Assembly (NCBI GenBank): GCA_049599475.1
Contig: JBMYOQ010000009.1
Location: 1-64,000, forward strand
DNA: 64,000 bases
Direction: 5' to 3'
DNA from: Opitutales bacterium
GTDB lineage: Bacteria; Verrucomicrobiota; Verrucomicrobiia; Opitutales; JABSRG01
The notes beneath the pieces are model-generated. The model was not told where the DNA came from. It did not search any database and saw only the letters and a list, made by a program, of their open reading frames with translations. Shown here in pieces: positions 33,069 to 54,124 of this stretch; position 1 is the first letter of the stretch, and every line of letters starts with the position of its first letter. A program made the position numbers and the translations under genes.

Positions 33069-33084
33069 AGGCATGCTAAGTGCT
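33069..33084 (+). promoter_or_regulatory. Putative sigma54 promoter
   Basis: AGGCATGCTAAGTGCT, GG-N10-GC, about 60 bp upstream of ATG 33142. Confidence 0.45.
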
Positions 33085-33141
33085 GTTCACTCGTTCCAAA
33101 AACAGGACTCATTGCGTCTAATCCGTTTCAATAATACAGGA

Positions 33142-34500
33142 ATGAATACCAAAACTTTAGCAATCTCTCTCGCTGCTACATGCATATCCGCCAGCGCTGC
33201 TCTTGGCTTGGACAAAAACAAACCGGGATGGTTTGATGATGTCACTGACAACCGTCTTCCGGAAATTCTCGAAACAGTCACTTTCGGGACCTTGGAGGCT
33301 GACTTTGGTGACCTTGATAACGACGGTGACTTGGACATTGTTATGGCCAATGACGGGAAAGAGCCCCTCGTGATCCTCTGGAACGACGGTAATGCCTGGT
33401 ATCAAGATTATCAACTGATTCCAATCCCAGGTCGCGTTGCTGCCGACGTTGATTTTGGAGATGTGAATGCCGACGGCTACCTCGACATCGTCGTGGGCAT
33501 GGCAGACTTCTACGGTGCCCAAAATCGCCTGTTACTCAACAATCGTGATGGCACATTTACCGACGCGACAGAGTTGGCCATGCCTAAATATGTCGACAAC
33601 ACTCGCGACACAGACTTCGTAGACGTCGACTATGACGGTGACCTTGATATCATCGTTGCAAACGTTGTAATCATGACCACCAACGAAAAGTGGCAGAACA
33701 AGATCTATATCAATAACGGATTCGGAATCTTTTCCGACGAAACGCTCACTCCTTCTGGCGAAGCCTATCGTTTCCCAATCGACAAGGCATCTACTCGCTC
33801 AATCCTTCCTATGGACGTAAATGAAGACGGTTACGTTGATTTTGTAATGGCTAATCGCTTCGATTCACCTCTCTGGGGCCAAGGTTACGACGGTCCTAAG
33901 GACAAGGTTTGGATCAACGATGGCAACGGTTTCTTCCACGACGAGTCTTTCCGCCTACCAGACGAAGAAGACAGCGGGCGCGACCTTAACAAGGGCGATA
34001 TCGATGGCGACGGCGACGAGGACTTAATCATCGGCAATGCTATCGGCAGCACTGAGCTTTACAATGGCGGCGGGCAACAGAACCGCGTCCTCATCAACGA
34101 TGGTAATGGCTATTTCACCGACGAAACTCTGACTGCAGAAGGTGAACGCTACCGCTTCCCCGTTCTTGAGAACTTAACCAAGAGTGTAGACATTGTTGAT
34201 ATCGACAACGACGGCGACCTCGATGTTCTGACCGCCAACTCACGCGGAGAAAACGGCTTCCTAGCCCCACAGCCTGGACAGCAAAACAGAATCTACATCA
34301 ACGATGGCACCGGTTTCTTCAACGAGGAATCAGTAATCGCCGCAGAGCAACGCCTGCGGTTCCCTGCTCGCTTCGACAACTGCTATGATCTGGACTTAGC
34401 CGATATCGACGGCGACGGCGATTTGGACATCTTCCTCGGAATTCGCGAGGAGACTTGCCGCCTACTCATCAACCGTACTCTTGACGAGCTAGGCTTCTAA
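33142..34500 (+). CDS. Secreted FG-GAP/VCBS repeat beta-propeller protein
   Basis: Seven DxD/NxDGxxD repeats with NxGxGxFxDE spacers; signal peptide after RBS AGGA. Confidence 0.9.
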   Translation: MNTKTLAISLAATCISASAALGLDKNKPGWFDDVTDNRLPEILETVTFGTLEADFGDLDNDGDLDIVMANDGKEPLVILWNDGNAWYQDYQLIPIPGRVAADVDFGDVNADGYLDIVVGMADFYGAQNRLLLNNRDGTFTDATELAMPKYVDNTRDTDFVDVDYDGDLDIIVANVVIMTTNEKWQNKIYINNGFGIFSDETLTPSGEAYRFPIDKASTRSILPMDVNEDGYVDFVMANRFDSPLWGQGYDGPKDKVWINDGNGFFHDESFRLPDEEDSGRDLNKGDIDGDGDEDLIIGNAIGSTELYNGGGQQNRVLINDGNGYFTDETLTAEGERYRFPVLENLTKSVDIVDIDNDGDLDVLTANSRGENGFLAPQPGQQNRIYINDGTGFFNEESVIAAEQRLRFPARFDNCYDLDLADIDGDGDLDIFLGIREETCRLLINRTLDELGF

Positions 34501-34516
34501 TCTGCTCTTAACTTTG

Positions 34517-34568
34517 CCGGATGGTTCGCGGGTTTCTCTGTTGAAATCCAGGCCCCATCCGGTTTTTT
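34517..34568 (+). terminator. Rho-independent terminator
   Basis: CCGGATGG...CCATCCGG followed by TTTTTT. Confidence 0.65.
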
Positions 34569-34610
34569 GTGTACGCAGCTCTCACACTGACATTTAATTC
34601 CTGATACAGA

Positions 34611-35489
34611 ATGCGATCTCTCTTTCATATTGGCCTAGCTAAAGCCGGATCAACCTACCTCCAGCAATGGTGGTCCGCGCATCCAAGCGTTCTCATGTAT
34701 CAGGACCTGTTTCCGATCGTCAAACGTGGCAAGTGGCAGCTAGAAGACTCCCCGAAACTCACAGTCTTGAGCGACGAGCGTTTTAGCTCTTACATTAAGC
34801 ACGAAGCCGATTGGGAAAAGCGCCTTGATCCCGATTTTGACATCGTTGAATACCAACGTAAAACACGTGATTTCCTCTTCGATCTCAATCCGAACGCGGA
34901 TCTGCTGCTGATTACGCGGGCTCCTTCCGTAAAACTGTTGAAATCGATTTATTCCCAGCACGTCAAAACAGGCGGGACCCGGGACTTCGATTCTTTCTAC
35001 GAAGAAATGCTTCCGGTCCTCAAAAGCGGATTCGGTTACGCTGAGGTATACGATTTATATAAAGAGAAGTTTTCTGAGTCTCAGATCACCGTTCTGCCGC
35101 TAGAGTGGATGAGTAAAGATCAGGATGGGTTTCTGAGCTTCCTTGAGGAGAAGTATGGGCTCGAGCACTACCGGCTGCCTCCTTCCAAGGTGAATACATC
35201 TGTGAGCGACGAAGAAATGTTCGCCTACCCGCGACTCAACCGGACCGTTTCAAAATACCTAAAACACACCCAGAAAATTGCCGGCTACAAAGGGCTCCTG
35301 GCCTACATTAAGATCTTGAGCAGCAACGTTTTTCAGGGTTTTGCCAAGTCTTACTGCAAAAAACATTCAGAGGAGTTTGAGGCCTTCTTCGCCAATGCGG
35401 ATCGCTATCTAGAAGAGTTCAGAAGCGACCGAGATATCATCAGCTACAGCCCGCAGTTCGAAGAATACCGCTCCGCTTACGAAGCCTGA
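34611..35489 (+). CDS. Sulfotransferase family protein
   Basis: 5'-PSB HIGLAKAGSTYLQ, LSDE, R...S.Y. Confidence 0.8.
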   Translation: MRSLFHIGLAKAGSTYLQQWWSAHPSVLMYQDLFPIVKRGKWQLEDSPKLTVLSDERFSSYIKHEADWEKRLDPDFDIVEYQRKTRDFLFDLNPNADLLLITRAPSVKLLKSIYSQHVKTGGTRDFDSFYEEMLPVLKSGFGYAEVYDLYKEKFSESQITVLPLEWMSKDQDGFLSFLEEKYGLEHYRLPPSKVNTSVSDEEMFAYPRLNRTVSKYLKHTQKIAGYKGLLAYIKILSSNVFQGFAKSYCKKHSEEFEAFFANADRYLEEFRSDRDIISYSPQFEEYRSAYEA

Positions 35490-36431
35490 TCAGAAGTATT
35501 TGTATTTAAGTAGATAAGGTACGCTCACCGAACTCACGAGGAATTTGGTGGAAGCCTTCATTGCCTGTTTCCACTCATCGTCAGGCTTGATTGATATCGT
35601 GCCTTTCTTGAAACGAAATGGGTTGCCCGCGACTGTGAAAGCATTCGCCAAGACCGCCTCATTTTTACCAGAGAAGAAGCTTAAATCCGGTTCGGGCAGA
35701 TCAAAATCACCCCACGCTGCGCGAATGGCTGACTGCGGATCCTGCACCAAGTCTTCATAGCGCATCAAATGATAGGCTTCCGGTATGTCTTTTTTGAATG
35801 TCTCCATCAACCGATTTGCCGCGCACCAATGCAGAGAGCTGGTAACCGGATTGAAAGTCGGCATGTCTTTATTTTCCCAGTGAATCTCCGGTCGCTTTCG
35901 TTTTCGCTGCCAAGAATGAGCAGTCGCACGAGGATCACGCACAATGTGCAAAATCTTCATGTTGAAACGCCCCGAAGCGAGTAGCAGGTGGGCGTAACAA
36001 GGATGCTTGGATGAATCAATCAAGAGCCCGGAGCCGGAAACATCTGATATCGAGCTGTAGAGTTTGAATAAAATCTCAGAGAATGCCGCGACCGCTTCTT
36101 TGAACTCCTCGGGCTGGCTAGATAATTGCCTCAGCTTAGGTATCGCGCGCAAGCGATCCGCGATCCCCCGGAGGCGGTCCACTTCGTCTAAATCTATCTG
36201 GTCGTACCCTCCGTATGCTTTTTCAATGACAGATTCCCAGAACGGGCATTCACGAAAAGGAACAGAATCCCCAACCCACTGGTTCTCTCGAAATGCGCGC
36301 TGCCATATATGCCTGACCTCGCCCAAGGAGATAGTGCCCGGGATCTCTCCCAAGACACGATCCAGCATGGTGCTGCCACTACGCCCGTAGCCGCCAATAA
36401 AAACAATCGTTGGTTTTGAGGAATCCGTCAT
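35490..36431 (-). CDS. Sulfotransferase
   Basis: GYGRSGSTML, IDSSK, RDPRATAHS, RYEDLV. Confidence 0.9.
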   Translation of the reverse strand: MTDSSKPTIVFIGGYGRSGSTMLDRVLGEIPGTISLGEVRHIWQRAFRENQWVGDSVPFRECPFWESVIEKAYGGYDQIDLDEVDRLRGIADRLRAIPKLRQLSSQPEEFKEAVAAFSEILFKLYSSISDVSGSGLLIDSSKHPCYAHLLLASGRFNMKILHIVRDPRATAHSWQRKRKRPEIHWENKDMPTFNPVTSSLHWCAANRLMETFKKDIPEAYHLMRYEDLVQDPQSAIRAAWGDFDLPEPDLSFFSGKNEAVLANAFTVAGNPFRFKKGTISIKPDDEWKQAMKASTKFLVSSVSVPYLLKYKYF

Positions 36432-36919
36432 TTCCAAATATTGCTAAAGATGAATCGCTCAATGATGTAAATCTTTCCTTTATCAAAGGCATAGGGCCCC
36501 GATAGAATTCGCGAAGCATCGACCATAAGTCCGCCGTCCTCATCGCGTTCTATCAGCACGTTGGAGCCATGCATTGATGGATACTTTCCCAAAGTATCCG
36601 CAGAGATTTCCGAAGCTCCTGGTAGCACGTGATAAGCGATTTGCTTAGATAGCTTCTCTCGGCTCTGAGCCGTGTCCGAGAAATAATAGTTCTTCAAGTG
36701 CTCGGGAAATGCCGCCATAGCTGCATTATTCGGCACTAATACGACAGCTCCATCAAGTTCATCAATGTCGTTCCAGAACTCGAGTTTCTCAATAATTTCA
36801 GCAAACTCGGATGTATCAGGAAGTTCCGACAATTGCTGTTTCAGGCTAGCAGTTGCACTGAGCGCCTGCACACACAGACCCAACATCAGAAGCCAACCGA
36901 ATTTTACCCCACTCCTCAT
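36428..36919 (-). CDS. Fasciclin (FAS1) domain protein
   Basis: Signal peptide; VLVPNNAAM, YHVLPG, GKIYIIER. Confidence 0.8.
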   Translation of the reverse strand: MRSGVKFGWLLMLGLCVQALSATASLKQQLSELPDTSEFAEIIEKLEFWNDIDELDGAVVLVPNNAAMAAFPEHLKNYYFSDTAQSREKLSKQIAYHVLPGASEISADTLGKYPSMHGSNVLIERDEDGGLMVDASRILSGPYAFDKGKIYIIERFIFSNIWK

Positions 36920-36921
36920 AA

Positions 36922-37737: not shown

Positions 37738-37755
37738 TGTCTTGTCCTCGTTATA

Positions 37756-38793: not shown

Positions 38794-40584
38794 CTATTTC
38801 GAAATAACGATCGGTGTGTGACTCAAGGCGAGCGGTTCGGAGCCCACCGACTTAGAACTCAAATCGGGCTTCCAGCTCGTATTAATCTCGGTAACCATAG
38901 CTCCTTGAGGCAATTGCGATGCCGGAATCGAAGCTTTCTTAGACTCCGACCACGCGACAATTGCCTCAGGGCGACCATCTGAGTATTCGATTTTGTATAT
39001 GTATGTATTACGATCTCCGTGACGCACGCGGCTTACTTTAGAAAAATCTTTCAAGTAGGGGCTTATTTGTTCCAGGGCATAGAAGGCTGGACGCGGTTTC
39101 ATACTGCGATCAATCAATCCACCGATCATCCAGTTTTTATCTACTGGTGTCTCTTCTCCCTGAGGACGATCCTTCATCATAAGAAGTATATTCTTCTTCA
39201 AGCCCTGCTCCGCGCCGATGACCAATTTCTTGACCATTAAGCGTGCCTGTTCCGCGCGAAACCATGTAGCCTCTTTCGAGTCCTTGCCCAAGCGTTTCTT
39301 GACTGCCTGATAAATCGTCTCCTCATGGAAAGGCGGATCGACATGAACTGATGGTGTGAACAGCCAAGGCGTCGTCAGGGTGTCGCCAGCCCAAATCTCT
39401 TTTTTAACCGCCTGAATCGGCCCCAACTCAGAGTGCAACCAATTCATTATTCCAGGCAGCCCCCTGTAATCTCGATTGTAGTGAATTTCTATGACGTCGT
39501 AATAGTCCGTAAAGGTCAGCGATTTGCGCATAAATAGCAGGCCCTTTTGAGCGAGCTTATTCATCTTGCGGAGCTTCTCCTGGAGTTGGCGCTGCGTGGG
39601 GTTGTCGTCAAAGGCATCACTAAAGTTCAGACCAGCCAGTATGATTTTCGAATCAGGAGACGCGGCCTTAGAGGCTTCGTAAGCAATTTTCAGCATCTCT
39701 CCATACTCCTCAACAGTGCCACGCCAGTAACCCTCATGGAATGCTTCAGACTCGATTTCCCAGTAGATGAGCGGGTATTTCAGGCCAGGCATGTCCTTAA
39801 ACCCGTCACCATCGTATCGCTCCACGATACTCGCAATGAACCGCGCATAGGCCGCCTGGTACTTGGGCTCCGGAAGCGCACTAATGGACCCTGCCCCAGG
39901 TGCGACAAAGCCGTCCTTCGTTTTAGTCGCAGGTATCGCCCATGGATTATTGGACTTCAACACCATCTGAAGTTCAAAGCCCGCGTCTTGATACTCCTTC
40001 ACGACATCATCTAGCTGGCGCCAAGTGTAGGTTGGTTTACCATCCTTCAGAGGAGCGCGTGGTTCTAGTTTCCCCCACGATACGAGAACTGCTTTGGCAT
40101 AGTCTGCCCCGACTCCCTCAAAATATTTGGCTAGATTATTCCATGTATACCCGACGCCGATATATCCGTCAGCATCGGCGCTCGGAGTCCCCGATTTATA
40201 ATTAACAAAGCCTTCCAGGGCTTCCGCAAAGCTACCTCCCGATGCCCCAACAGGCGTTCCCGATGGTTCGGAAGCGGGACTTGAGGACTCTTTGGGAGCG
40301 GCATCTGCCAATGCCGATTCAATCCGCATTAAAATAGAACGCATAGTGCGCATATCGCCGCGCGCCGACGCAGATTCATAGCGCTGCTGCGCTTGCTTGA
40401 ATTGTTGAAGCGGTAATTGGACTCCTGCAGCTCTCAGCGACTGCACCTCTTTGGTAAGAGCGTCCATCTTGGCGTCGAGCTGTTCTTGGCCCTGCCCCAA
40501 TGCCGTGTGAAGGCTGCCGATCAGGCCAATGCAGAGGGCCGCGGTCCAGGCGGATAGAAAAGGTCGTTTCATTTGAAGGCTCAT
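38794..40584 (-). CDS. Secreted clan-A-like glycoside hydrolase (GH39/GH5-like TIM barrel)
   Basis: Signal peptide; W..LD..V, VERYDGDG, YWEIESE, IEIHY, GLID...PRPAFYAL; start 40584 ATGA-coupled to wzy-like gene. Confidence 0.75.
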   Translation of the reverse strand: MSLQMKRPFLSAWTAALCIGLIGSLHTALGQGQEQLDAKMDALTKEVQSLRAAGVQLPLQQFKQAQQRYESASARGDMRTMRSILMRIESALADAAPKESSSPASEPSGTPVGASGGSFAEALEGFVNYKSGTPSADADGYIGVGYTWNNLAKYFEGVGADYAKAVLVSWGKLEPRAPLKDGKPTYTWRQLDDVVKEYQDAGFELQMVLKSNNPWAIPATKTKDGFVAPGAGSISALPEPKYQAAYARFIASIVERYDGDGFKDMPGLKYPLIYWEIESEAFHEGYWRGTVEEYGEMLKIAYEASKAASPDSKIILAGLNFSDAFDDNPTQRQLQEKLRKMNKLAQKGLLFMRKSLTFTDYYDVIEIHYNRDYRGLPGIMNWLHSELGPIQAVKKEIWAGDTLTTPWLFTPSVHVDPPFHEETIYQAVKKRLGKDSKEATWFRAEQARLMVKKLVIGAEQGLKKNILLMMKDRPQGEETPVDKNWMIGGLIDRSMKPRPAFYALEQISPYLKDFSKVSRVRHGDRNTYIYKIEYSDGRPEAIVAWSESKKASIPASQLPQGAMVTEINTSWKPDLSSKSVGSEPLALSHTPIVISK

Positions 40585-42131
40585 AGCAAGAGTGGTTTCG
40601 TCTTGGAACGGGCTTGAGGTGTAAGGTGTTCGGAGCCTATCAATTCCGAATCCTTCAGCTTGGTCAGAGCAATCGTGGCTCCCATAGAGATCCAGAGAAA
40701 TTCGAAATCGATCGCATTGGTAGAGAATGAAAACAGGTAAAATGCCAAGAGGTTCAATCCCGCGAGCTTTATCAGTTGCTTTCGCCCGTGGTTCTCCGTT
40801 TTCAACCAACACAACAGAATCGTACAGGCTAGCACCACAATCGCGAATTTGAAGAAAACGAGAGCAAGTAAACCTGACTCTGCAAGCAGCCCCAAAGTCG
40901 TGTTATGAGGCAAGAATGGTTTCATTTCTCCCCGAGTCGTGCGGTAATTATGCCAACGGTCGAGGTAATTGCCAAACCCGACCCCGATTACCGGGTGCTC
41001 GCGTGCCATTTCGATTCCGGTCGTCCAGATACCGTATCGAGGATCATCATAGAATGCATCAAGGGATATCCCGTTTCGGTAGGAATCCCCTAGGATATCA
41101 TTTAAAAACGGGATGACACATACCACCCCGATCGCCCCGCATACCACCAACAGGCGTTTCAAGGGGTAATTAAAAAACAACAAACACAAGCCCACAAAAA
41201 AACTCGTGCTCACAAGGCCCGCTCGACTGCCAGTAGCGACAACGTTCATCGCCACCATAACACAATATCCTACAACCGCACCTCGAAGTATCAGCGATTT
41301 AGTGAACTGCCAAATCCCTAAAACAAACACGAGGGTCAACAGCATGAACCCACAGAAGTAATTCGAATCTAAGAAAGTAGAAGCCACCCGGATCCATTCA
41401 GCTTCTTCCTCGGTGTTCGCATTCTTAGTACTGACCAATCCCTGAGCGCCTCCGCCCACCAGATTATAATCCATCCCAACGAGGCTGAGAATCGACTGCC
41501 CCGTGAAAATTTCAATAATGCCGAAACCTGTAATAATGTATCCGATCGCCAGGACCGTAAAATAAAACTGCTTCAGGCGCCAAACAGATGTGATCGTATC
41601 GGCCAGCATCACCGCGATCATGTAATAAGGGATCATCTTGGTGAATAGGAAACCAAAGAAGAGACCCGAGTGATGCGCGTTCAGGTAGGAAGGCAATAGG
41701 CTCAGATAGAATAATACTACCGAGGCAAAGAAGGGATGATTCACGAATGAGGTAACCAGACGTGCATTCTTCTGCACCAAATGATTGAGCATCCATATCC
41801 CTACAACCGCCGGCATCAATATCTTGGGCAAGGTGATCGAACCATCTCCACTGATATTCGCCATAAACTGGAAGGGGATAATGAATACGAGCAACAGGAC
41901 GGCCCAGTATGGCTTAAGCAAAAGTATAATTCCACCGACCGCGCAAGGGATCAGGGGAACCGCCAATATGGGATTGGGCAAGGCCGCCAGCACAACTCCA
42001 ATCGCGAAAGCTCCGGCAATGGCCAGTACCACTGCAGCCAGAGCAAAGAAAAATTTCTCACGGCCCGATCCCTGGCGACGGTATTCCCAGGATAGCTGCT
42101 GGGATAACTTATTTGCCGCCGCAGATCCCAT
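40581..42131 (-). CDS. O-antigen ligase/Wzy-type polymerase
   Basis: Multi-TM; TGSRAG, HPVIGVGFGNY, PHNTTLGLLAESG. Confidence 0.88.
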   Translation of the reverse strand: MGSAAANKLSQQLSWEYRRQGSGREKFFFALAAVVLAIAGAFAIGVVLAALPNPILAVPLIPCAVGGIILLLKPYWAVLLLVFIIPFQFMANISGDGSITLPKILMPAVVGIWMLNHLVQKNARLVTSFVNHPFFASVVLFYLSLLPSYLNAHHSGLFFGFLFTKMIPYYMIAVMLADTITSVWRLKQFYFTVLAIGYIITGFGIIEIFTGQSILSLVGMDYNLVGGGAQGLVSTKNANTEEEAEWIRVASTFLDSNYFCGFMLLTLVFVLGIWQFTKSLILRGAVVGYCVMVAMNVVATGSRAGLVSTSFFVGLCLLFFNYPLKRLLVVCGAIGVVCVIPFLNDILGDSYRNGISLDAFYDDPRYGIWTTGIEMAREHPVIGVGFGNYLDRWHNYRTTRGEMKPFLPHNTTLGLLAESGLLALVFFKFAIVVLACTILLCWLKTENHGRKQLIKLAGLNLLAFYLFSFSTNAIDFEFLWISMGATIALTKLKDSELIGSEHLTPQARSKTKPLLL

Positions 42132-43312
42132 TAGGCAGCTGCAGGTTTCGCAGTCTTCTCAGGCGAGACTACAGATTCGTAGACAGCGGCCATGGCAGCA
42201 GCCATACCATCATCGGTGAAATGTGTCTGCACCCGCTCACGGCTCTTGGTTCCAAAACTAATCCGGCGGCCGTGATGCGTCATCAATTCGACAATCCGCT
42301 TTTCAAATTCTTCTTGGTTCCCGTGTTCACAGACGTAGCCAGTGACCCCAGACTCCACCATATCGGGATGACTTCCCGTATTGAAACACAACACAGGACG
42401 CTCCATCGCCATGGCCTCCAGAATACCATAGGGAAAATTCTCTTCCAGAGACGGCTGCACATACAGGTCAAGGCCCGCGACCAAGGTCCGCGCATCTGAG
42501 CGCCATCCAGCAAAGATAACCTCGTCTTGAAGACCTAACTCTTCAACAAGCGCTTTGAGCTTAGGAGCTTCGCCACCTTGACCGATGATCAAATTCTTAT
42601 GAGCAATTCCGGCCTTTTTGAGCGCCGCACTTCCGCGGATCAAAGCTTGGACATTCTTTGAGGGTACCAATCGTATCGCTGTTCCAATGACAAGTGTGTC
42701 AGCGGAAAAACCAAACTCCTCACGCATCTTGGAATGCTCGAGGGGAATCTCGGAGGCATCCGGAAGGCGAATCCCGTTATACACTATGTGCGACTTTGCC
42801 TCAGGTGCCCCATCGCTCAAAATATCTTGGCGCAAATCTTCAGACGCTACCACAAATGCCGCATTTCCTTGGCTTAGGATTTTGTTTTGCGCGAGCATGA
42901 ATTTTCCCAACCACACACGCTTCCCGGCGATATCTCCAATCACCTTCTTCATGTAAGTGTGGACCGTTGTGACAATCTTAGTCTTTGGGGCGATTAAGCT
43001 CGCTATGCGTCCGTAAAAATTACCGTTAAGAGTATGTGTATGGCAAATATCAATACCATTATCTATATAGTATTTGCGCAGCCGCAGAAAGGTACTCGGA
43101 TCCCCAGGCTTACTTTTGCCTGCTACAAAATAGGGCAGCCCGCGAGCCTCAGCAGCCTCTGAGACTTCCCCCTCCTCAAGTAGGGTTAAATGGCTTTCGA
43201 AGCGACTGGAGTCCATATACTCCATGAGGTTGAAAATGTAGGCAGCGCAGCCACACATTTTCTTACCAGCGTGAATGTGCGCGATACTTATACGTCGATC
43301 GGAAGATTCCAT
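42131..43312 (-). CDS. Glycosyltransferase family 4
   Basis: ENFPYGILEAMA EX7E motif. Confidence 0.92.
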   Translation of the reverse strand: MESSDRRISIAHIHAGKKMCGCAAYIFNLMEYMDSSRFESHLTLLEEGEVSEAAEARGLPYFVAGKSKPGDPSTFLRLRKYYIDNGIDICHTHTLNGNFYGRIASLIAPKTKIVTTVHTYMKKVIGDIAGKRVWLGKFMLAQNKILSQGNAAFVVASEDLRQDILSDGAPEAKSHIVYNGIRLPDASEIPLEHSKMREEFGFSADTLVIGTAIRLVPSKNVQALIRGSAALKKAGIAHKNLIIGQGGEAPKLKALVEELGLQDEVIFAGWRSDARTLVAGLDLYVQPSLEENFPYGILEAMAMERPVLCFNTGSHPDMVESGVTGYVCEHGNQEEFEKRIVELMTHHGRRISFGTKSRERVQTHFTDDGMAAAMAAVYESVVSPEKTAKPAAA

Positions 43313-44498: not shown

Positions 44499-45122
44499 TT
44501 AAAAAAGATCGTCTATAAATTTCGGTATATAGCTCTTGTAACGATTAAAAACGGTTCCGAGTAGGTTGCCGCCATCTTGCGCTATACCCTCGCAGGTATC
44601 TTTAATTACCAAATTACTGGGCCCCTGATGCTTCACAACAAGGAGAGTATCTTTGATAATGCTGATCATAATACCAGTCACGCGCACCGATTCATATGCC
44701 GGTAAATCAAAAATCACGTGATCAAAATGCTTATCCAGCTCCTCTATCAAAGATGCGAGCGCCTTGGGAGCTTCCACGATAAGATCGCCCTCGCTTCCAG
44801 TCGCAATCGTAGGGAACTCGATGTCTTCAAGCGAAGTAAGATCCCCACTTGCTGTTGGATTCGCCAGAAGGTCAAAGAGCGTGGGTGTGTTCTCAGTGAT
44901 AACGGAGTCGGGCAACGAATGATACGGGTTTGCATCGATAAGCAATACACGACGCCCTTTCTGGCTCAGCACATTTGCGATGTTTTGGCAGATAGTGCTC
45001 TTACCTTCACGCGGACCGCTACTAGTTACAGCAAGACAGGTCCCACACTGTCCACTTGATTGGGCAACCAGAAGCGAATTCGCAACGGTTTCCAAAGAGA
45101 AGAGTTGTTTTTTGTTGGCCAC
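44499..45122 (-). CDS. CpsD/CapB-type tyrosine kinase (Wzc C-terminal domain)
   Basis: SSGPREGKST, LLIDAN, VIFDLP, LGTVFNR. Confidence 0.88.
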   Translation of the reverse strand: MANKKQLFSLETVANSLLVAQSSGQCGTCLAVTSSGPREGKSTICQNIANVLSQKGRRVLLIDANPYHSLPDSVITENTPTLFDLLANPTASGDLTSLEDIEFPTIATGSEGDLIVEAPKALASLIEELDKHFDHVIFDLPAYESVRVTGIMISIIKDTLLVVKHQGPSNLVIKDTCEGIAQDGGNLLGTVFNRYKSYIPKFIDDLF

Positions 45123-45151: not shown

Positions 45152-46519
45152 TTACTTCGAAAGGAATCGCAAAGAGCGGTCGAGCTTAGGCACTGTGCCC
45201 CAAACCGGAACCTCCGCGAGCTCTTCAAGCTCTTGGCGACGGAACGGATAGTTGAGGAAGAATTCTAGGACGAAGGGGAAACCGACCCCGAGCCCTGCAG
45301 CAAACACGACGATTACTGGGACAAAGAGCACTAAGTCTGGCCAATCTGGATCCGCGCTTTCAGATACCGGCATGCGGTCCACTACAGTCATACCGAATTC
45401 ACCGAGCTGGCTCCCTTGTTGGATGCCCAATTCTTGGATTTTCTCCTCGAGTTGGAAGTAGATGTGTTCAGTAAGGTTAAGATCGTTTTGAAGCGCTGTG
45501 TATTCGTTTTCGCGCTTTATCACATCGTCGATTTCTAAGCTAACCTCTTCGAGGTTTTTCTCGAGGTTCTCGCGGCGCCCGCGATTTCCGGCAATGGTGA
45601 TCTCCAAATCACTGATGGTAGACGTGATCTCCTCCTGCTTACTTGGCGAGAGCCTTGAATTCTGAGCCTGCTTGTTCGCTTCGGCCAACTCTTGTTGGAG
45701 AGCAGCATTTGCAGTGCGCACCGAGCTAAGCTGTTCCTCAAGTCCTTCCTTGTGTTCCAGAAGGAGGCGTTTCTCGTCGGCGAAAGATGCGACACGCAGC
45801 GTCACTTTCAGATTCTCCACTTCATCTCTCAGTTTTACATAACGCTGCTTGTATTCCTCTCCCTGAGACACCGCGAAATTATATGCCTCGGTGGCTTCCG
45901 AGCGGTTGAGCTCAAGCAATGTTTTGATGAGTAATTGAGTCACTCGCGTGACCATCTCGTTCGCGATTTCTGGATTTTCTCCAAAAATCGCAATTTCGAT
46001 GATTTCGGTGTCTTCGACGAGTTCGACGTCGAGCATCTCCTCAATGAAAGCTTCGATTGCATCTGCTCTCCAGTCATCTGGAGTGGTTCCCAACCAACCT
46101 TTTTCGACGGCGTAATCCTTAGGCCACAAGATAAAATTGACGATCCCCATCTTAAACTGATCGCGGAAGTGCTCGGGCTCTTCTTTTGATTTCCGGAGAC
46201 GTTCAGCTAGATCGAATTCGTCGACAATCCGTCCCGCCAGAATCTCGCTCTGGAGGATGTTTATAATGTTGTTATTATAATTTACCCGCGTGTTCAGCTC
46301 TCCAGGAGTCGTGACGTCGCGAAACAGTCCTAGCTGCTGCTTGTAGTTGTGCTCCACCAGTACCCGCGTCGCCGCGCGGTAAGTAGGTGTCACCAAAATG
46401 GTGAGAAACAACATCAACACGGATGTAATTCCAAAGATACTCACCATCATCCACTTGCGTCGGAAGAAGACGTAAACGGTATGCTTAATGAGTTTTTCAG
46501 CTGATTCGTCGATAATCAC
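45152..46519 (-). CDS. Polysaccharide co-polymerase (GumC/Wzc N-terminal part)
   Basis: Two TMs flanking coiled coil; PTYRA; PVWGTVP. Confidence 0.88.
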   Translation of the reverse strand: MIIDESAEKLIKHTVYVFFRRKWMMVSIFGITSVLMLFLTILVTPTYRAATRVLVEHNYKQQLGLFRDVTTPGELNTRVNYNNNIINILQSEILAGRIVDEFDLAERLRKSKEEPEHFRDQFKMGIVNFILWPKDYAVEKGWLGTTPDDWRADAIEAFIEEMLDVELVEDTEIIEIAIFGENPEIANEMVTRVTQLLIKTLLELNRSEATEAYNFAVSQGEEYKQRYVKLRDEVENLKVTLRVASFADEKRLLLEHKEGLEEQLSSVRTANAALQQELAEANKQAQNSRLSPSKQEEITSTISDLEITIAGNRGRRENLEKNLEEVSLEIDDVIKRENEYTALQNDLNLTEHIYFQLEEKIQELGIQQGSQLGEFGMTVVDRMPVSESADPDWPDLVLFVPVIVVFAAGLGVGFPFVLEFFLNYPFRRQELEELAEVPVWGTVPKLDRSLRFLSK

Positions 46520-48132: not shown

Positions 48133-48939
48133 CTACGGCTCTTGATTCGGATCTGCCTGTTGATCTTCCTCATCGTCCCTCACGCCGATCGTCGTGTTAT
48201 TCAGATTATATCCAGCACTGAAACGGATGAAATCTGGAATCAAATTGTTGATGTAAAAATCGACGAAGTCGCCGGCATAGGCGATGTCACGCTTTGGCAC
48301 GTAAACAATGTCTCCCGGGAAAAGGTTCAACGCGCCTTGGTCCCAGCGATCTTCCTGAGTCAGGTCCAAGACTACACCTTCGACACCCTCACTCGTATTG
48401 CGAATTACAGACACTTTGCTCAAGTCTGCCGAGCGGCGTGTGCCTCCTGCGAGAGCGATGGCATGGAAAACATTCACGCGCATCGAGCGTGTCTGCAGTG
48501 CCTGAGGATCTCCCACTTCACCGTCGATGTAGATGACCCGTCGTGAAATATCGCGGACGATTACGGTGAGACGTGGGTTATCAATTACTTCGGTGAAGGC
48601 CTGCGTGAGCTCATCTGCAAGCTCTTCAGGTGTTTTACCCACAGCAATTTTTGGCTCGATCAGGTTTAGATTGATCACGCCATCCGGACGGATACGGAGT
48701 GTTTCATTAAGCTCAGGGTCATAATAAAACTTCACCTGAATCTCATCTCCAGGATACAGATAGAAGGCCTGGTCCTTATCAACTGGAGGGCGAAAATCCG
48801 ACGAGAACGCGGTGGACCGTTCATGGTATGACGGGAACGGCGAGTCTTCAATCGTTGAGCAACCAGTAAAGCCCAGGAAGGCCGCTATAGGAAACAGAAA
48901 CGCTGCTGATTTGAGAGAGAATTTAGGCAGGTATTGCAT
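48133..48939 (-). CDS. Polysaccharide export lipoprotein (Wza/OPX)
   Basis: Lipobox FTGC; LYPGDEI, IRPDG.I, GEV..P, LFPGDIVYVP. Confidence 0.9.
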   Translation of the reverse strand: MQYLPKFSLKSAAFLFPIAAFLGFTGCSTIEDSPFPSYHERSTAFSSDFRPPVDKDQAFYLYPGDEIQVKFYYDPELNETLRIRPDGVINLNLIEPKIAVGKTPEELADELTQAFTEVIDNPRLTVIVRDISRRVIYIDGEVGDPQALQTRSMRVNVFHAIALAGGTRRSADLSKVSVIRNTSEGVEGVVLDLTQEDRWDQGALNLFPGDIVYVPKRDIAYAGDFVDFYINNLIPDFIRFSAGYNLNNTTIGVRDDEEDQQADPNQEP

Positions 48940-50134
48940 AGCTTTCGAGACGAGAGGGAGCCTCTAGGAGCTCCGTGTATTTATTTATAAAATCGGTCTT
49001 ATACACTTCCCAAGTGTACTTCGCTCGGGAGGCTTTCGACGCGTTTTCAGCAAAGGATTGTCGGCGTGAAGGGTCAGCCGCAAGGGCAATTATCGCATCT
49101 GCCAGTTCTTCGGCCTTGGTTTCATCGACGATCAATCCGGAATCACTCTCATTGAGGATTTCTTTGACCTCGCCCATATCTGTAGCAACGAGCGGCACCC
49201 CGCAGCTCATGGCATCAAACAGCTTAGTCGGCGTAATTGGAGCAAACCATTTTGTCCGGCGATAAAGCACCGTTCCGATGTCAATGCGTCCGTAAAGCTC
49301 CGGAATATCAGTCATCGGAAAAGCCCCTATGACCTCGACCGAATCTCCAAACGGCGCACATAGCGTTTCATAGGTCTCTTTGTAATTGTCGAAGACACGT
49401 CCTGCTAGCAGGAGTTTGAATTTCTGGGTCAACTCGCCACTTTTCACCTTTTCCAAGATGATTTTATAGGCGTCCAACAGCTCTTCGATCCCATTGTCTT
49501 CGTAGACAGAGCCCACGCGGCCGATAGTGATCACGTCCTTTTCAAATTCGCGAGTGCCCGATGCTTCAAATTTGAGTGTGGGATACGAGCCGGCTTTGAG
49601 GACATTTTTGAGTCCATGGGCTTCAAATTTGCGCACCTGATAGTCATTGTGCACACAGAGGAAATCGTAGCGTTTGGAGAACTGAGCTTCGACAAAGTTG
49701 ATCGCGTTGAGCAAGAAACTCCGTTTGCCGTCCCACATCGCATAGTAATTGGGCTCACACAGATCGAGGACTGCCTTCGCTCCAATTGATCGGGCGGTCA
49801 CCAAGCTAGTGACAATCGTATCCAGATTGTAGCAGTGCACGATGTCCGGCTTATGTTCCTTGAGGTACTTTCTGACGGCCCGGTTGAATTTGAACATATT
49901 CACGATGTTCTTCGGCCCGCTACCCACCGGAGCTTTGATCTGAAAGCGAATGACCTTCACACCATCAAGCGTCTCTTTCTCAGGACCTTGGCATTCGCGA
50001 TCCCAAGCGAGAATGGTAACATCGAAACCAGCTTCGACCAAGCTTTTCGCCTGGTTGATCACGCGCATATATCGGCCCTGGAATGGCTTAAAACTCATTC
50101 CGAAGCTCATCACGACTCGCGGTTGCTCGCTCAT
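48923..50134 (-). CDS. Glycosyltransferase family 4
   Basis: PTKLFDAMSCGVPLV; GT-B pattern. Confidence 0.9.
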   Translation of the reverse strand: MSEQPRVVMSFGMSFKPFQGRYMRVINQAKSLVEAGFDVTILAWDRECQGPEKETLDGVKVIRFQIKAPVGSGPKNIVNMFKFNRAVRKYLKEHKPDIVHCYNLDTIVTSLVTARSIGAKAVLDLCEPNYYAMWDGKRSFLLNAINFVEAQFSKRYDFLCVHNDYQVRKFEAHGLKNVLKAGSYPTLKFEASGTREFEKDVITIGRVGSVYEDNGIEELLDAYKIILEKVKSGELTQKFKLLLAGRVFDNYKETYETLCAPFGDSVEVIGAFPMTDIPELYGRIDIGTVLYRRTKWFAPITPTKLFDAMSCGVPLVATDMGEVKEILNESDSGLIVDETKAEELADAIIALAADPSRRQSFAENASKASRAKYTWEVYKTDFINKYTELLEAPSRLESYAIPA

Positions 50135-51351: not shown

Positions 51352-51514
51352 AGTAGTTAGAGATGAGTTAATCGTTGATAATCAGAGCCTAAGAGAAAAC
51401 TCAGCTGACGGTTCAAACGCACAGGTCCTTCGTGAACAACGAAAATTTCGTCTCCAAAGCGATTTTAACCTGATTGCCTTATTGATCATCTGACTCTCCC
51501 AGCCAGACGAACAG

Positions 51515-51529: not shown

Positions 51530-51534
51530 TCTTC

Positions 51535-52989
51535 CTAGCGAGCTCCTCGCGCCGTAAGGACTACACGCACGGTGCGGAACAAGATCACAATATCCAACCA
51601 GAGCGACCAATTTCTCACGTAGTAAGGATCCCAGCGGACCATGCCTTCGTTGCCCGCATCGCTACGGCCTGAAACCTGCCATAGACCTGTGATCCCTGGT
51701 TTGACCCGCTCGCGGAGCATGCGCACGCTGTCTGGAAGTTGATTGTAATGATAATCAGGAAGCGGGCGTGGGCCGATCAGCGACATTTCACCCTTCAAAA
51801 TGTTTACCAGCTGCGGAATCTCATCGAGCGATGTTTTACGCAAAAATTTGCCCATCCGCGTGATGCGAGGATCGTTCACCAATTTGCAGTTTGCTTCCCA
51901 TTCAGCCTTTAGCTCGGGATCTGCCTCCAGGTGTTGCTCCAAAACCTTGTCTGCATCGGGCACCATGGTCCGGAATTTCCAAGTGTCGAAGACTTCGCCG
52001 CGCTGTCCAATGCGCTTTTGCTTGTAGATCGGGTTCTTGCGGTCGTCGAGCCAGATAAGGGCATACAAAGCCGCAAATAATGAGCCCCAGAAAGGCAGTG
52101 TGAGCATCGCGACACCGGCCTCGAAACAGCTCTTCACAACGCGCAAGGTGGGATCCAGAAGATTGTTCTTCAGCTCCAAACCGGGGACACCGCACATATC
52201 GCGCGAAGTGGCCCAAAGGGAGGGACTGTGAATCAGATTAGGAATGAGGATGACACGAAGATAGCTAGACAGCGAGTGCTGCATCATCTCTCCGATTTTC
52301 TCTCCTTCAATGCGAGTAATCGCCAGGATGGCTATCGGGACATTCTTTGCGATCGAGTCGGTAAATCCACAAACAGGCACTCCTTCCACACTCGTATTCG
52401 CCAATTCAGGGTTATCGTCGAATACACAAACGGGATGATACCCCTTACCTGGATCGGCTCTGAAACGCTTGATAATCTCACGCCCTGCAGAACCTCCACC
52501 GTAGATAGCGACGGGAGTCCCCCATGTCTTGCGATGAACCAAAACGTTTTTTGCCAGAATACGAAAAGCTGGGATCAGCGGCATGGCTGCTATACAGCAG
52601 ACAGCTCCTGCGATACGGCCGCCGGTATCAAAATCTAGGAGCGTGATGACCAGAAAAGTACCGATACAAAGCAGCACCTGACGACGGAGGGCTTCAAAAG
52701 CGGATAAGCCCCAACCAGGTAACAGGCCCCAGGCTATCGATCCAATTCCCCAGATCGCTGCACTCAGGTAAAACCAGGATAAATCAAGGGAATGACCCAA
52801 TGCCCATTTCAAAGATAAAGCCGCCGCTTCATAAGCGACGAACAAGCCCAGAATTTCCGCGAACAGCAGAACAGAGGCGTTAAGAATGAGGCGTTTAAAG
52901 AGCTTGAGCCCCAAATTCAGCTTCATCCGGAAGTGCCATTGCTTCGGACTGGCTTCAATGGGAGTGTCTAAACTAAGTGCGGTAGACAT
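51535..52989 (-). CDS. Priming undecaprenyl-phosphate glycosylphosphotransferase (WbaP/WcaJ-like)
   Basis: KFRTM, DPRIT..G..LRKTSLDE.PQ, KPGITGLWQVSGR. Confidence 0.95.
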   Translation of the reverse strand: MSTALSLDTPIEASPKQWHFRMKLNLGLKLFKRLILNASVLLFAEILGLFVAYEAAALSLKWALGHSLDLSWFYLSAAIWGIGSIAWGLLPGWGLSAFEALRRQVLLCIGTFLVITLLDFDTGGRIAGAVCCIAAMPLIPAFRILAKNVLVHRKTWGTPVAIYGGGSAGREIIKRFRADPGKGYHPVCVFDDNPELANTSVEGVPVCGFTDSIAKNVPIAILAITRIEGEKIGEMMQHSLSSYLRVILIPNLIHSPSLWATSRDMCGVPGLELKNNLLDPTLRVVKSCFEAGVAMLTLPFWGSLFAALYALIWLDDRKNPIYKQKRIGQRGEVFDTWKFRTMVPDADKVLEQHLEADPELKAEWEANCKLVNDPRITRMGKFLRKTSLDEIPQLVNILKGEMSLIGPRPLPDYHYNQLPDSVRMLRERVKPGITGLWQVSGRSDAGNEGMVRWDPYYVRNWSLWLDIVILFRTVRVVLTARGAR

Positions 52990-53028
52990 CGTGAGAGAGT
53001 AGAGGTGAGCTAGAGGTGTTTTGTTTTT

Positions 53029-53961
53029 CTACGGAGCCACAGGTTCAATACCTACGGGCGGAACCAAGTCTCCATCGAATTTACGAGTATGGACGGGGGG
53101 TGACTTGGAGATTTTCCAAATATTCCTCATTTGGAATCGGAGAATCGATTTTAGGTGTTTTTTGAGACCTGGGTGGAACACGGTGTCTTCGCGTTCGTAA
53201 AAGTGCGTCATTGTCGCTTCAGGCTGATACCAGTTCTCATAACCAGCGGCCTTCACGCGGTAGCAAAGATCGTAGTCCTCGTATTGGTAGAAATAACCTT
53301 CATCAAAGCCCCCAATCTGCTTGAGAACAGAGTTGCGGATGATCAAACCCGCTCCATAGCAACAATCGAATTCCATCAATTTGTCGTGACCGCAATTGCG
53401 CATCTGAATCTTCGCAGGAATACCTGTCCACTCGAAGATCGAGCGCAATTTAGTGCCCTCGATCGCGATGTGGAAAATGGATGGGAACGGCCGGATACTG
53501 AGCTGCAAAGATTGGTCTCTGTAGAGCAATTTTGGATGAACGATGCCTGCCTTAGGGTTCGCTTCAGCGACATCTACAAGCGTATCCACTGTGTTTGGAT
53601 GCAGGAGTGTATCCGAATCCAATATCATCGTGTACTTTGCTTTGGTATTCCAAAAGAGGCGATTTCGTCCACCCGCAACACCTAGATTGGCACCGTTTTC
53701 GAGAATCTTCACATAAGGATACTTCTCTTGGACCATCTCACGCGTCCCATCCACGGATCCGTTATCCGAGAGCAAGACCTCATATTTGTAGCGCTGCGGC
53801 GAGGCCTCCAAAGAGGCTAATAAATCATCGATGCGCTGCTTGTCGCGATAGCACAGCAGGCCAATGCACACATCATACTCGTATTCGGTGCCATCAGCAT
53901 CCGGAGACGTGCGTTGTGTGTACACTTCAGGAGAATACGTACGAGAGTCGGTGGCGTTCAT
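53029..53961 (-). CDS. Glycosyltransferase family 2
   Basis: DNGSVDGT, LDSD, GGFDEGYFYQYEDYD. Confidence 0.92.
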   Translation of the reverse strand: MNATDSRTYSPEVYTQRTSPDADGTEYEYDVCIGLLCYRDKQRIDDLLASLEASPQRYKYEVLLSDNGSVDGTREMVQEKYPYVKILENGANLGVAGGRNRLFWNTKAKYTMILDSDTLLHPNTVDTLVDVAEANPKAGIVHPKLLYRDQSLQLSIRPFPSIFHIAIEGTKLRSIFEWTGIPAKIQMRNCGHDKLMEFDCCYGAGLIIRNSVLKQIGGFDEGYFYQYEDYDLCYRVKAAGYENWYQPEATMTHFYEREDTVFHPGLKKHLKSILRFQMRNIWKISKSPPVHTRKFDGDLVPPVGIEPVAP

Positions 53962-54109
53962 AGCGTCAGTCGGTGGCCACTGAGAGAGCACAGCAGTAGC
54001 ACTTGTTGGATGCCAGTATAGCGGGCTGGTATCAATGTTATTTGTCTTCTGGGATACATTTATGTGAATTCTCAGGAGTTCGCCTTAAACTTGGAATGTT
54101 AGCCCATCA

Positions 54110-54124
54110 GCATCATTGGAGCCA
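54110..54124 (-). promoter_or_regulatory. Putative sigma54 promoter at the head of the polysaccharide operon
   Basis: Minus strand TGGCTCCAATGATGC, GG-N10-GC. Confidence 0.45.

What the first reader, a model, noticed from the sequence alone, without database searches (positions are those of the whole stretch)
33069..54124. Wzy-type locus for a probably heavily sulfated, galactofuranose-containing exopolysaccharide with its own matrix proteins
Seen: priming transferase, one GT2, two GT4, glf, Wza, MurJ-type flippase, split Wzc, Wzy, GNAT, secreted glycosidase, a fasciclin and four distinct PAPS-motif sulfotransferases, with an FG-GAP propeller at the edge. Known: characterised bacterial sulfated EPS pathways are few (e.g. 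cyanobacterial synechan), and Glf makes UDP-Galf. Inference: four sugar transferases against four sulfotransferases suggest a short repeat unit sulfated at several positions, Galf-containing and acylated, assembled with adhesin-like proteins. I know of no characterised pathway with this combination.
Basis: partly seen in the sequence, partly recalled or inferred. Interest (0 to 1): 0.8.

Follow-up and report, generated by a model that had tools for sequence, protein, structure and literature searches.

The report
Marine Verrucomicrobiota sulfated-polysaccharide gene cluster
An uncultured seawater bacterium carries an intact, conserved 18-gene cluster with a complete polysaccharide export machine and four sulfate-adding enzymes, so it likely makes a multiply sulfated surface sugar polymer; this is an undescribed variant of a kind of system already known from cyanobacteria, actinomycetes and other marine bacteria.

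Summary
The gene inventory is confirmed. All 18 genes keep their order in a congener. Fifteen, including three sulfotransferases, recur in a third record, L096, which lacks the fasciclin, ST1 and FG-GAP genes nearby. The organism is a seawater Verrucomicrobiota MAG; cysC-cysD-cysN lie on another contig. Best reading: a Wzx/Wzy pathway that builds a predicted four-sugar repeat, sulfates it in the cytoplasm and exports it. Three corrections. (1) The mutase has Arg64 where the solved Galf mutases inspected have His and the C. jejuni enzyme has Arg59, so the furanose may be GalfNAc. (2) The PslG-fold glycosidase has an invariant Asp where clan GH-A relatives have the Glu nucleophile. (3) 'Own matrix proteins' is weak: these genes are accessory, and FG-GAP and ST1 form a separate, convergent unit. 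New here: a perfect sigma54 site before glf, one of 7 in the genome, kept in the congener. Sulfotransferases are common in this genome (about ten more) and its relatives (30 of 61), and sulfated exopolymers are known in the phylum (Pontiella). A new variant of a known kind; moderate interest.

The parts
33073..34500 (+). FG-GAP repeat beta-propeller protein, acidic, likely secreted (hydrophobic N-terminal segment after the second Met); accessory, convergent with the main run
   Evidence: PF13517 E 2e-41, 6 repeats; about 81% identical in congener G001; no homolog in 159 GH-anchored loci
34611..35489 (+). Sulfotransferase ST1 (accessory, convergent unit)
   Evidence: PF13469 E 2e-4; ESM Atlas 0.96; both PAPS motifs; 74% identical in G001
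35490..36437 (-). Sulfotransferase ST2 (core)
   Evidence: PF13469 E 2e-14; orthologs in G001 (83%) and L096 (56%); a 28% homolog sits in a Wza/Wzy/flippase locus of Ruegeria sp. B32
36428..36919 (-). Single fasciclin (FAS1) domain protein with a signal-peptide-like N-terminus; overlaps ST2; accessory
   Evidence: PF02469 E 1e-11; 62% identical in G001, the least conserved gene tested; absent between ST3 and ST2 in L096
36922..37737 (-). Sulfotransferase ST3 (core)
   Evidence: PF00685 E 5e-14; 86% identical in G001, 50% in L096
37756..38781 (-). Sulfotransferase ST4 (core)
   Evidence: PF00685 E 3e-5; ESM Atlas 0.98; 79% identical in G001, 54% in L096
38794..40572 (-). PslG/GH39-fold glycoside-hydrolase-like protein (592 aa), likely periplasmic; acid/base Glu276 kept, Asp397 at the inferred nucleophile position
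40581..42131 (-). Wzy polymerase (Wzy_C / O-antigen ligase family), at least 9 hydrophobic segments
   Evidence: PF04932 E 5e-18; 89% identical in G001
42131..43312 (-). GT4 glycosyltransferase a
   Evidence: PF00534 E 6e-30
43330..44454 (-). Tandem-GNAT acyltransferase (Eis2/N-myristoyltransferase-like fold); acceptor unknown
   Evidence: PF13527 E 2e-4; model pLDDT 93.6, Foldseek E 5e-15
44499..45122 (-). Stand-alone BY-kinase half of Wzc (Walker A, C-terminal Tyr residues)
   Evidence: TIGR01007 E 3e-19, below cut-off; sequence
45152..46519 (-). Polysaccharide co-polymerase (PCP-2 membrane half of Wzc), 2 TM segments
   Evidence: PF02706, PF13807
46532..48100 (-). MurJ-subfamily MOP flippase, paralog of the housekeeping MurJ on contig C11
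   Evidence: PF03023 E 6e-46; TIGR01695 167 bits, below the 235.55 cut-off, while the C11 copy scores 298.7
48133..48939 (-). Wza/OPX export lipoprotein (lipobox-like Cys27)
   Evidence: PF02563, PF22461; sequence
48923..50134 (-). GT4 glycosyltransferase b
   Evidence: PF00534 E 1e-22; 42-43% identical homologs in non-sulfotransferase chassis loci L015, L099, L112
50164..51351 (-). Pyranose-furanose mutase (Glf family) with Arg64 at the position that is His in solved UGMs and Arg59 in C. jejuni 4MO2; the only full-length glf found in the genome
   Evidence: TIGR00031 330.7 bits
51515..51529 (-). Perfect sigma54 (-24/-12) consensus site in the 183-bp spacer between the priming transferase and glf; predicted promoter of the glf-to-ST2 run
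   Evidence: 1 of 7 perfect sites in 4.68 Mb; one-mismatch copy at the same place in G001; rpoN present
51535..52989 (-). Priming polyprenyl-phosphate hexose-1-phosphate transferase, WbaP-like
   Evidence: TIGR03025 above cut-off, TIGR03022 387.7/403
53029..53991 (-). GT2 glycosyltransferase; inferred to be the furanose transferase (inverting family)
   Evidence: PF00535 E 2e-18; 67% identical in L096, 42% in L015
54109..54124 (-). Weaker sigma54-like site (2 mismatches) upstream of GT2; could be chance
   Evidence: about 0.06 expected per 450 nt on one strand

Best explanation
The locus is a conserved Wzx/Wzy-type pathway that likely makes a multiply sulfated, furanose-containing capsular or released polysaccharide. 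Inferred steps: the WbaP-like enzyme primes undecaprenyl phosphate with a hexose-1-phosphate (probably Gal-1-P). GT2, GT4a and GT4b add three more sugars; one is a furanose from the Glf-family mutase (Galf or GalfNAc). The sulfotransferases ST2-ST4, and possibly ST1, use PAPS made by cysC-cysD-cysN on contig C28 to sulfate the lipid-linked repeat in the cytoplasm, and the tandem GNAT may acylate it. The MurJ paralog flips the unit, Wzy polymerises it, and the split Wzc and Wza export it. The PslG-like periplasmic protein would trim or guide the chain, as PslG does in Psl export. The glf-to-ST2 run is predicted to be switched on from a sigma54 promoter. Shown here: genes, folds, motifs, synteny, purifying selection, the PAPS genes and the promoter motif. 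Inferred: every substrate, the polymer, and its degree of sulfation (3-4 sulfotransferases per 4 transferases gives an upper bound of about 0.75-1 sulfate per sugar).
For: Full assembly set in one tightly packed run, gaps of -17 to 44 bp except the 183-bp promoter spacer. All 18 genes in the same order in congener G001, over three contigs. For the 12 genes tested, pN was 0.05-0.26 against pS of 0.77-0.90. Fifteen of 18 genes, with ST2-ST4 directly behind the glycosidase, recur in L096; ST2-ST4 are 50-56% identical and keep their PAPS motifs. No sulfotransferase has a hydrophobic segment. APS kinase and CysD/CysN-type genes are adjacent on C28, and galE is present. The cluster MurJ is a second copy. 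An ST2 homolog lies in a Wza/Wzy/flippase locus of a cultured Ruegeria. A second perfect sigma54 site precedes another Wza/Wzc locus on C12. Precedent: synechan has 8 glycosyltransferases, 2 sulfotransferases and 8 sugars to 2 sulfates (PMC8205485, passages).
Against: No chemistry exists for this organism. The genome has about ten other sulfotransferase genes on six contigs, several in other glycan loci, so enzymes could act across pathways and gene counting is weak. Deleting xssE did not substantially change synechan accumulation. Five Proteus clusters with glf give O-antigens without Galf (PMC5560731, passage). PF04932 also covers O-antigen ligases. ST1 and ST4 score below the Pfam cut-off or lack a passing stretch. 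The sigma54 pattern with one mismatch is not enriched in the window as a whole (3 found, 3.8 expected).
Confidence: 0.7

Rival explanations
1. The locus makes a Wzy polymer, but only one or two of the sulfotransferases act on it, so sulfation is modest (synechan-like, about 0.25 per sugar). ST1 belongs with the FG-GAP gene or another glycan.
For: ST1 and FG-GAP are a separate convergent unit and are missing near L096. xssE was dispensable for synechan accumulation. Many other sulfotransferase and glycan loci exist in the genome.
Against: ST2, ST3 and ST4 are mutually dissimilar, each conserved with intact motifs across three genomes or records, and packed behind the glycosidase. That fits three distinct positions being sulfated.
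Confidence: 0.17
2. The repeat unit is transferred to protein or lipid (a glycoprotein, PEP-CTERM-type or lipid-A-linked glycan) by the Wzy_C protein acting as a ligase, and not exported as a long polymer.
For: PF04932 covers ligases as well as polymerases. Several proteins score weakly against PEP-CTERM/XrtA-system models, all below cut-off. About 25 PEP-CTERM-like C-termini were counted by a crude pattern.
Against: A PCP, a tyrosine kinase and an OPX protein are in the same run in all three syntenic loci. These serve high-molecular-weight export (established knowledge). A PslG-like protein is also typical of polymer export.
Confidence: 0.08
3. The sulfotransferases are passengers acting on non-carbohydrate substrates, and the polymer is unsulfated.
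For: The best solved-structure sequence match for ST2 is the CurM polyketide sulfotransferase (E 3e-7). Related chassis loci work without these genes.
Against: The CurM match is a remote fold-level hit. Where the chassis lacks these sulfotransferases it carries other tailoring-type genes (methyltransferases, B12 radical-SAM, PF01663 enzymes) in similar positions, which suggests tailoring slots. The ST2 homolog in Ruegeria is again in a polysaccharide locus.
Confidence: 0.05

Closest known systems
Synechan xss cluster, Synechocystis sp. PCC 6803 (PMC8205485; passages seen)
   Same: Wzx/Wzy/PCP/OPX pathway with sulfotransferases in the cluster; the best-characterised genetic precedent.
   Different: xss has 8 glycosyltransferases and 2 sulfotransferases, its OPX gene is elsewhere, and it is regulated by XssQ/R/S. 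This locus has 4 transferases, 3-4 sulfotransferases, its own OPX, a MurJ-subfamily flippase, a mutase, a tandem GNAT, a PslG-like protein and a sigma54 site. Orthology to xss genes was not tested.
wps-1 cluster, Actinoplanes missouriensis (PMC13390465; passages seen)
   Same: Wzx/Wzy cluster with sulfotransferases of different families and a glycoside hydrolase inside the cluster; product likewise unverified chemically.
   Different: Gram-positive, two sulfotransferases, GH26 hydrolase, methyltransferase and kinase; 'galactopyranose mutase' and 'MurJ' had 0 hits in its main text.
Sulfated glycosaminoglycan-like exopolymers of Pontiella (Verrucomicrobiota, Kiritimatiellae; PMC7356697; passages seen)
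   Same: Same phylum; sulfated exopolysaccharide measured; a putative cluster with GT2/GT4 genes and a sulfotransferase.
   Different: One sulfotransferase and eight glycosyltransferases in that cluster; mostly N-sulfated; 'Wzy' had 0 hits in the main text.
Sulfated capsules of Vibrio sp. KMM 8419 and Cobetia marina KMM 1449 (PMC11641403, PMC11766843; passages seen)
   Same: Marine bacteria with NMR-solved sulfated capsules and clustered sulfotransferases (three in the Vibrio locus).
   Different: ABC-transporter export, rhamnose-based repeats, PAPS genes inside the cluster.
PslG of Pseudomonas aeruginosa (PDB 5BX9, 4ZN2, 9G17) and GH39 5JVK
   Same: Best fold matches for the 592-aa protein (Z 27.6-28.7, rmsd 2.9-3.4 A over 356-370 residues); a hydrolase-fold protein encoded in a polysaccharide export operon.
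   Different: 14-16% identity; an extra N-terminal helical region; Ser-Glu and Gly-Asp in place of the Asn-Glu and Thr-Glu seen in canonical relatives.
C. jejuni UDP-GalNAc pyranose-furanose mutase (PDB 4MO2) versus classical UDP-Gal mutases
   Same: Arg at the position-59 equivalent.
   Different: Gly173 where 4MO2 has Arg168; overall closer to Deinococcus 3HDQ (401 against 246 bits). The role of Arg59/Arg168 is recalled from Poulin et al. 2010 and 2014, which were not held.

Membership tests
Wzx/Wzy-dependent exopolysaccharide/capsule pathway | Priming phosphoglycosyl transferase | tested here: met
   TIGR03025 327.8 bits against cut-off 295.55
Wzx/Wzy-dependent exopolysaccharide/capsule pathway | Glycosyltransferases for the repeat unit | tested here: met
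   One GT2 and two GT4 above Pfam cut-offs
Wzx/Wzy-dependent exopolysaccharide/capsule pathway | MOP-superfamily flippase dedicated to the locus | tested here: met
   PF03023 157 bits; MurJ subfamily, not PF01943; housekeeping MurJ elsewhere. Related loci use either MurJ-type (L015, L049, L108) or PF01943-type (L059, L074, L112) flippases
Wzx/Wzy-dependent exopolysaccharide/capsule pathway | Wzy polymerase | tested here: inconclusive
   PF04932 65.7 bits and at least 9 hydrophobic segments; the family includes ligases, so polymerase is assigned from context
Wzx/Wzy-dependent exopolysaccharide/capsule pathway | PCP-2/BY-kinase and OPX export proteins | tested here: met
   PF02706, PF02563 above cut-off; kinase TIGR01007 E 3e-19, below cut-off
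Sulfated bacterial EPS pathway (synechan/wps-1 type) | PAPS-dependent sulfotransferases inside the cluster | tested here: met
Sulfated bacterial EPS pathway (synechan/wps-1 type) | PAPS supply in the genome | tested here: met
   cysC, cysD, cysN-type genes adjacent on C28
Sulfated bacterial EPS pathway (synechan/wps-1 type) | Polymer shown to carry sulfate | not testable with these tools
   Uncultured MAG; no chemistry
Synechan xss cluster itself | Orthology and gene content of xssA-T (8 GTs, XssQ/R/S) | tested here: not met
   Gene content differs (4 transferases, no regulator genes in the locus); sequence orthology was not tested directly
Classical UDP-galactopyranose mutase (makes UDP-Galf) | TIGR00031 equivalog score | tested here: met
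   330.7 against 303.75
Classical UDP-galactopyranose mutase (makes UDP-Galf) | His at the position-59 equivalent | tested here: not met
   Arg64; His in all of the non-Campylobacter chains whose alignments were shown (3HDQ, 4XGK, 5EQF, 5BR7, 5EQD). E. coli, Klebsiella and 1V0J/4RPG alignments were not displayed
UDP-GalNAc pyranose-furanose mutase (C. jejuni UNGM) | Arg59 and Arg168 equivalents (roles recalled) | tested here: inconclusive
   Arg59 equivalent present (Arg64); Arg168 equivalent is Gly173
GH39/PslG (clan GH-A) | (beta/alpha)8 barrel plus beta-sandwich, acid/base Glu | tested here: met
   Glu276 in 37 of 37 aligned sequences
GH39/PslG (clan GH-A) | Glu nucleophile at the end of strand 7 | tested here: not met
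   Gly396-Asp397 in 37 of 37, while distant hits P0042-P0045 have Thr-Glu at the matching motif; equivalence inferred from the sequence pattern, not from superposed coordinates
Peptidoglycan lipid II flippase MurJ | TIGR01695 equivalog cut-off | tested here: not met
   167.3 against 235.55; the C11 copy passes at 298.7
PEP-CTERM/exosortase-associated EPS locus | XrtA-system equivalog scores, exosortase in the locus | tested here: not met
   All XrtA-system models below cut-off; no exosortase among the locus genes; the genome was not searched for exosortase

The most novel reading that the evidence does not exclude
The locus makes a densely sulfated (about one sulfate per sugar) polymer containing N-acetylgalactofuranosamine, a sulfated furanose glycosaminoglycan-like structure I did not find in print. 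It is built on a cross-phylum chassis (MurJ-type flippase, tandem GNAT, GT2/GT4b, Wzy) whose tailoring genes are swapped between sulfotransferases here and methyl, radical-SAM or PF01663 enzymes in Brocadiaceae and Thermodesulfobacteriota records. Its PslG-fold protein would then define a clan GH-A subfamily with a different chemistry: Asp in place of the Glu nucleophile, and Ser in place of the Asn that contacts C2, which would suit substrate-assisted cleavage next to an N-acetyl sugar.
Probability: 0.15. Interest if true: 0.72.

Novelty: new variant of a known kind. Interest (0 to 1): 0.42.

Why it matters
Few bacterial polysaccharide sulfotransferases have a known substrate, and Verrucomicrobiota are mostly studied as degraders of sulfated glycans (PMC9723792, passages). 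This compact, self-contained locus offers three or four unrelated sulfotransferases acting on a predicted four-sugar repeat. That is a tractable set for assigning regiospecificity and for engineering sulfated glycans. Two enzymes pose sharp, cheap biochemical questions: whether the widespread Arg64 mutase clade makes UDP-GalfNAc, and whether the Asp-bearing PslG-fold family is a hydrolase with altered chemistry or a non-catalytic guide. Against this, multi-sulfotransferase Wzy loci are evidently not rare, so the bare combination is not surprising to a specialist.

Tried and rejected
Expression: no RNA holder was listed among 5 runs, which says nothing either way. Laying two DNA runs of one other study showed only short contigs, mostly 99% or more alike, over the locus. 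Sigma70 promoter and terminator scans were at or near chance level. Sequence search of the glycosidase alone against the PDB found nothing; the profile did. GT2 against the PDB gave only remote hits, so its donor could not be assigned. The GNAT family hit no NCBIfam model in 61 of 61 members. Its fold is Eis2/NMT-like; no FemABX entry was among the listed rows, which does not exclude it. glf DNA had no match in E. coli genomes. One PDB fragment search was out of frame and uninformative. The primary papers on the C. jejuni mutase were not held, nor a review, and three literature searches did not show the Arg59 result (also 94). The record behind L096 could not be read beyond the fetched 21.7 kb, so ST1, fasciclin, FG-GAP and the glf promoter may lie elsewhere on it. 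Rejected: the cluster MurJ as the peptidoglycan flippase; frameshifts or decay; recent foreign acquisition by composition (locus GC 0.496, genome 0.505). No complex prediction was run. Look-ups of earlier findings by sequence, by place and by two narrower word sets returned nothing.

Full report
Observation. The ORF list and family scans confirm all 18 genes between 33073 and 53991. Sixteen lie on the minus strand in the order GT2, priming transferase, glf, GT4b, wza, murJ-like, PCP, kinase, GNAT, GT4a, wzy, glycosidase, ST4, ST3, fasciclin, ST2. The gaps are -17 to 44 bp except for 183 bp before glf. FG-GAP and ST1 are on the plus strand and converge on ST2. The four sulfotransferases share no alignable length, each has both PAPS-binding motifs (motif patterns recalled), and the two that are weak in Pfam are supported by the ESM Atlas at 0.96-0.98.

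Organism. The genome is a 4.68-Mb, 96.6%-complete MAG. Proteins 76% identical to the glycosidase are labelled Verrucomicrobiota. No call named the order; Opitutales is my guess from its breadth. The run holding all sampled words is a seawater metagenome and may be the source. One other marine study also holds the DNA.

Conservation. All 18 genes are present in the same order in the one congener, G001, over three contigs. For the 12 genes tested, synonymous sites are saturated (pS 0.77-0.90) while pN is 0.05-0.26, the fasciclin being the least conserved. Record L096 holds 15 of the 18 genes: glf through ST2 in the same order without the fasciclin, and GT2 plus the priming transferase as a separate unit. 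ST1 and FG-GAP are not in the 21.7 kb fetched. The locus is otherwise rare in the samples searched. The glycosidase matched 2 of 401 order genomes at E 1e-15 (G000 and G001). The PCP matched 2 of 401 phylum genomes, ST4 2 of 401 and ST1 1 of 301, each count including G000.

A wider chassis. Eleven of the 159 hold homologs of at least two other cluster proteins (L049 and L071 share a contig), and only L096 holds homologs of the sulfotransferases. In L015 (Ca. Brocadiaceae) and L049/L071 (Thermodesulfobacteriota), homologs of the MurJ-type flippase, Wzy, PCP and GT4b (33-42%) occur, with GT2 (42%) in L015 and the GNAT in L049. There they are interleaved with B12 radical-SAM enzymes, methyltransferases and PF01663 proteins. 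L059 and L097 each have one unrelated sulfotransferase. I infer a shared assembly chassis with exchangeable tailoring genes; most members of the glycosidase family (148 of 159 loci, many short) showed no such context.

Supply and background. cysC, cysD and cysN-type genes are adjacent on C28, galE passes its cut-off on C8, and the housekeeping MurJ is on C11. About ten further sulfotransferase genes lie on C2, C10, C15, C28, C42 and C43, several in Wzy- or ABC-type glycan loci. PF13469 matched 30 of 61 genomes (G000 and 60 relatives). Sulfation of surface glycans therefore looks like a habit of this lineage.

The mutase. It passes the Glf equivalog cut-off and is the only full-length copy found in the genome. 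It has Arg64 where the five non-Campylobacter chains displayed have His and C. jejuni 4MO2 has Arg59. Arg64 is kept in G001 and in P0121, which comes from a contig of the same length as L096's. The exact motif occurs in 115 of the 120 closest homologs listed; 5 did not match the pattern. The second residue that I recall as needed for GalNAc use, Arg168, is Gly173 here. The primary papers were not held; a passage in PMC3792076 confirms only that the enzyme makes UDP-GalfNAc. My odds: Galf 0.5, GalfNAc 0.35, other or none 0.15. A passage in PMC5560731 shows that glf in a cluster does not guarantee Galf in the product.

The glycosidase and the GNAT. The 592-aa protein folds with pLDDT 89 and matches PslG and GH39 best. 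Glu276 is invariant, but all 37 aligned sequences have Gly-Asp at 396-397, and 34 of 37 have Ser before the acid/base Glu. Four distant hits have the canonical Asn-Glu and Thr-Glu motifs at the matching places. The equivalence is inferred from pattern. Hydrolase activity is therefore not assured; altered chemistry or a non-catalytic guiding role are both open. The GNAT is a tandem domain of Eis2/N-myristoyltransferase-like fold, so acyl-CoA-dependent acylation is plausible but its acceptor is unknown.

Regulation. A perfect sigma54 consensus lies at 51529-51515, pointing into glf. There are 7 perfect sites in the genome, about 0.0003 expected in 450 nt of one strand, and G001 keeps the site with one change. 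rpoN and six strong activator genes are present. Another of the 7 sites precedes a second Wza/Wzc locus on C12. With one mismatch allowed the pattern is not enriched in the window (3 found, 3.8 expected), so the case rests on the perfect match, its position and its conservation. A two-mismatch site upstream of GT2 (54124) may be chance.

Mechanism. Most likely (0.7) the locus builds a four-sugar, furanose-containing repeat on undecaprenyl phosphate, sulfates it at up to three or four positions in the cytoplasm, flips it with the MurJ paralog, polymerises it with Wzy and exports it through Wzc/Wza. All substrates are inferred. The main rival is lighter sulfation (0.17): in synechan, loss of xssE did not substantially alter EPS accumulation.

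Comparison and novelty. I read passages, not whole texts or supplements, of PMC8205485 (synechan), PMC13390465 (Actinoplanes wps-1), PMC11641403 and PMC11766843 (Vibrio and Cobetia sulfated capsules), PMC7356697 (Pontiella) and PMC9723792. Supplementary cluster figures in the synechan and Pontiella papers, which I did not see, could hold closer matches. Searches showed no described pathway with this combination. The kind is known, however, even within the phylum, and this scan's own unchecked notes list 77 findings in at least 74 genomes for the same key words; of the eight shown, several have four to six sulfotransferases. Verdict: a real, intact, rare locus; a new variant of a known kind; interest 0.42. 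The mutase, the Asp-bearing PslG-fold family and the sigma54 site are the parts most worth testing.

Noticed in passing
window 22326-24146 and 26645-27382: A SulP sulfate-permease-family gene and a SASA-type carbohydrate acetylesterase lie 6-11 kb from the locus; linkage to the locus was not tested.
   Followed up: no
G000:C12 60014 (L185:11965-16319): A second perfect sigma54 site precedes an unannotated 455-aa gene followed by SLBB/Wza-like and Wzc-like genes, suggesting sigma54 control of more than one export locus.
   Followed up: partly
L178:5755-12342 (G000:C2): Another Wzy_C locus with two sulfotransferases (one Gal-3-O-sulfotransferase-like) and three GT4, next to a DUF3485 gene.
   Followed up: partly
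L176-L177, L179, L180, L181 (G000:C28, C10, C42, C43): Further glycan loci with sulfotransferases: an ABC-type locus holding cysC-cysD-cysN, two loci with NeuB and cytidylyltransferase genes, and one with a carbamoyltransferase.
   Followed up: partly
L015, L049/L071, L059, L074, L112: Polysaccharide loci in Ca. Brocadiaceae, Thermodesulfobacteriota/Deltaproteobacteria and an unnamed metagenome record with up to four B12 radical-SAM or other radical-SAM enzymes, several methyltransferases and up to three PF01663 proteins each: predicted heavily methylated and phospho-decorated polymers, possibly a finding in their own right.
   Followed up: partly
L100:446-6682: A 2079-aa open frame ends in a domain of the same glycosidase family (35% identical); the rest was not examined.
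   Followed up: no
L197 (Sinorhizobium meliloti GR4 pRmeGR4d 935680-936603) and 73 other Sinorhizobium records: An unannotated 27% homolog of ST2 near GT4 genes on Sinorhizobium megaplasmids; a genetically tractable place to test this sulfotransferase family.
   Followed up: partly
window 51395-51445 (minus strand): Short blocks in the leader between the sigma54 site and glf are conserved in G001 while the rest of the spacer diverges; function unknown.
   Followed up: no
L091 (G386:C443): The only other phylum hit of the PCP is a fused 729-aa Wzc beside a polysaccharide deacetylase and a Wza fragment.
   Followed up: partly
window 30465-32941: ECF sigma factor, an unknown 187-aa gene, a PDZ protein and a 109-aa gene run on the same strand just upstream of the FG-GAP gene, which might belong with them and not with the polysaccharide run.
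   Followed up: no
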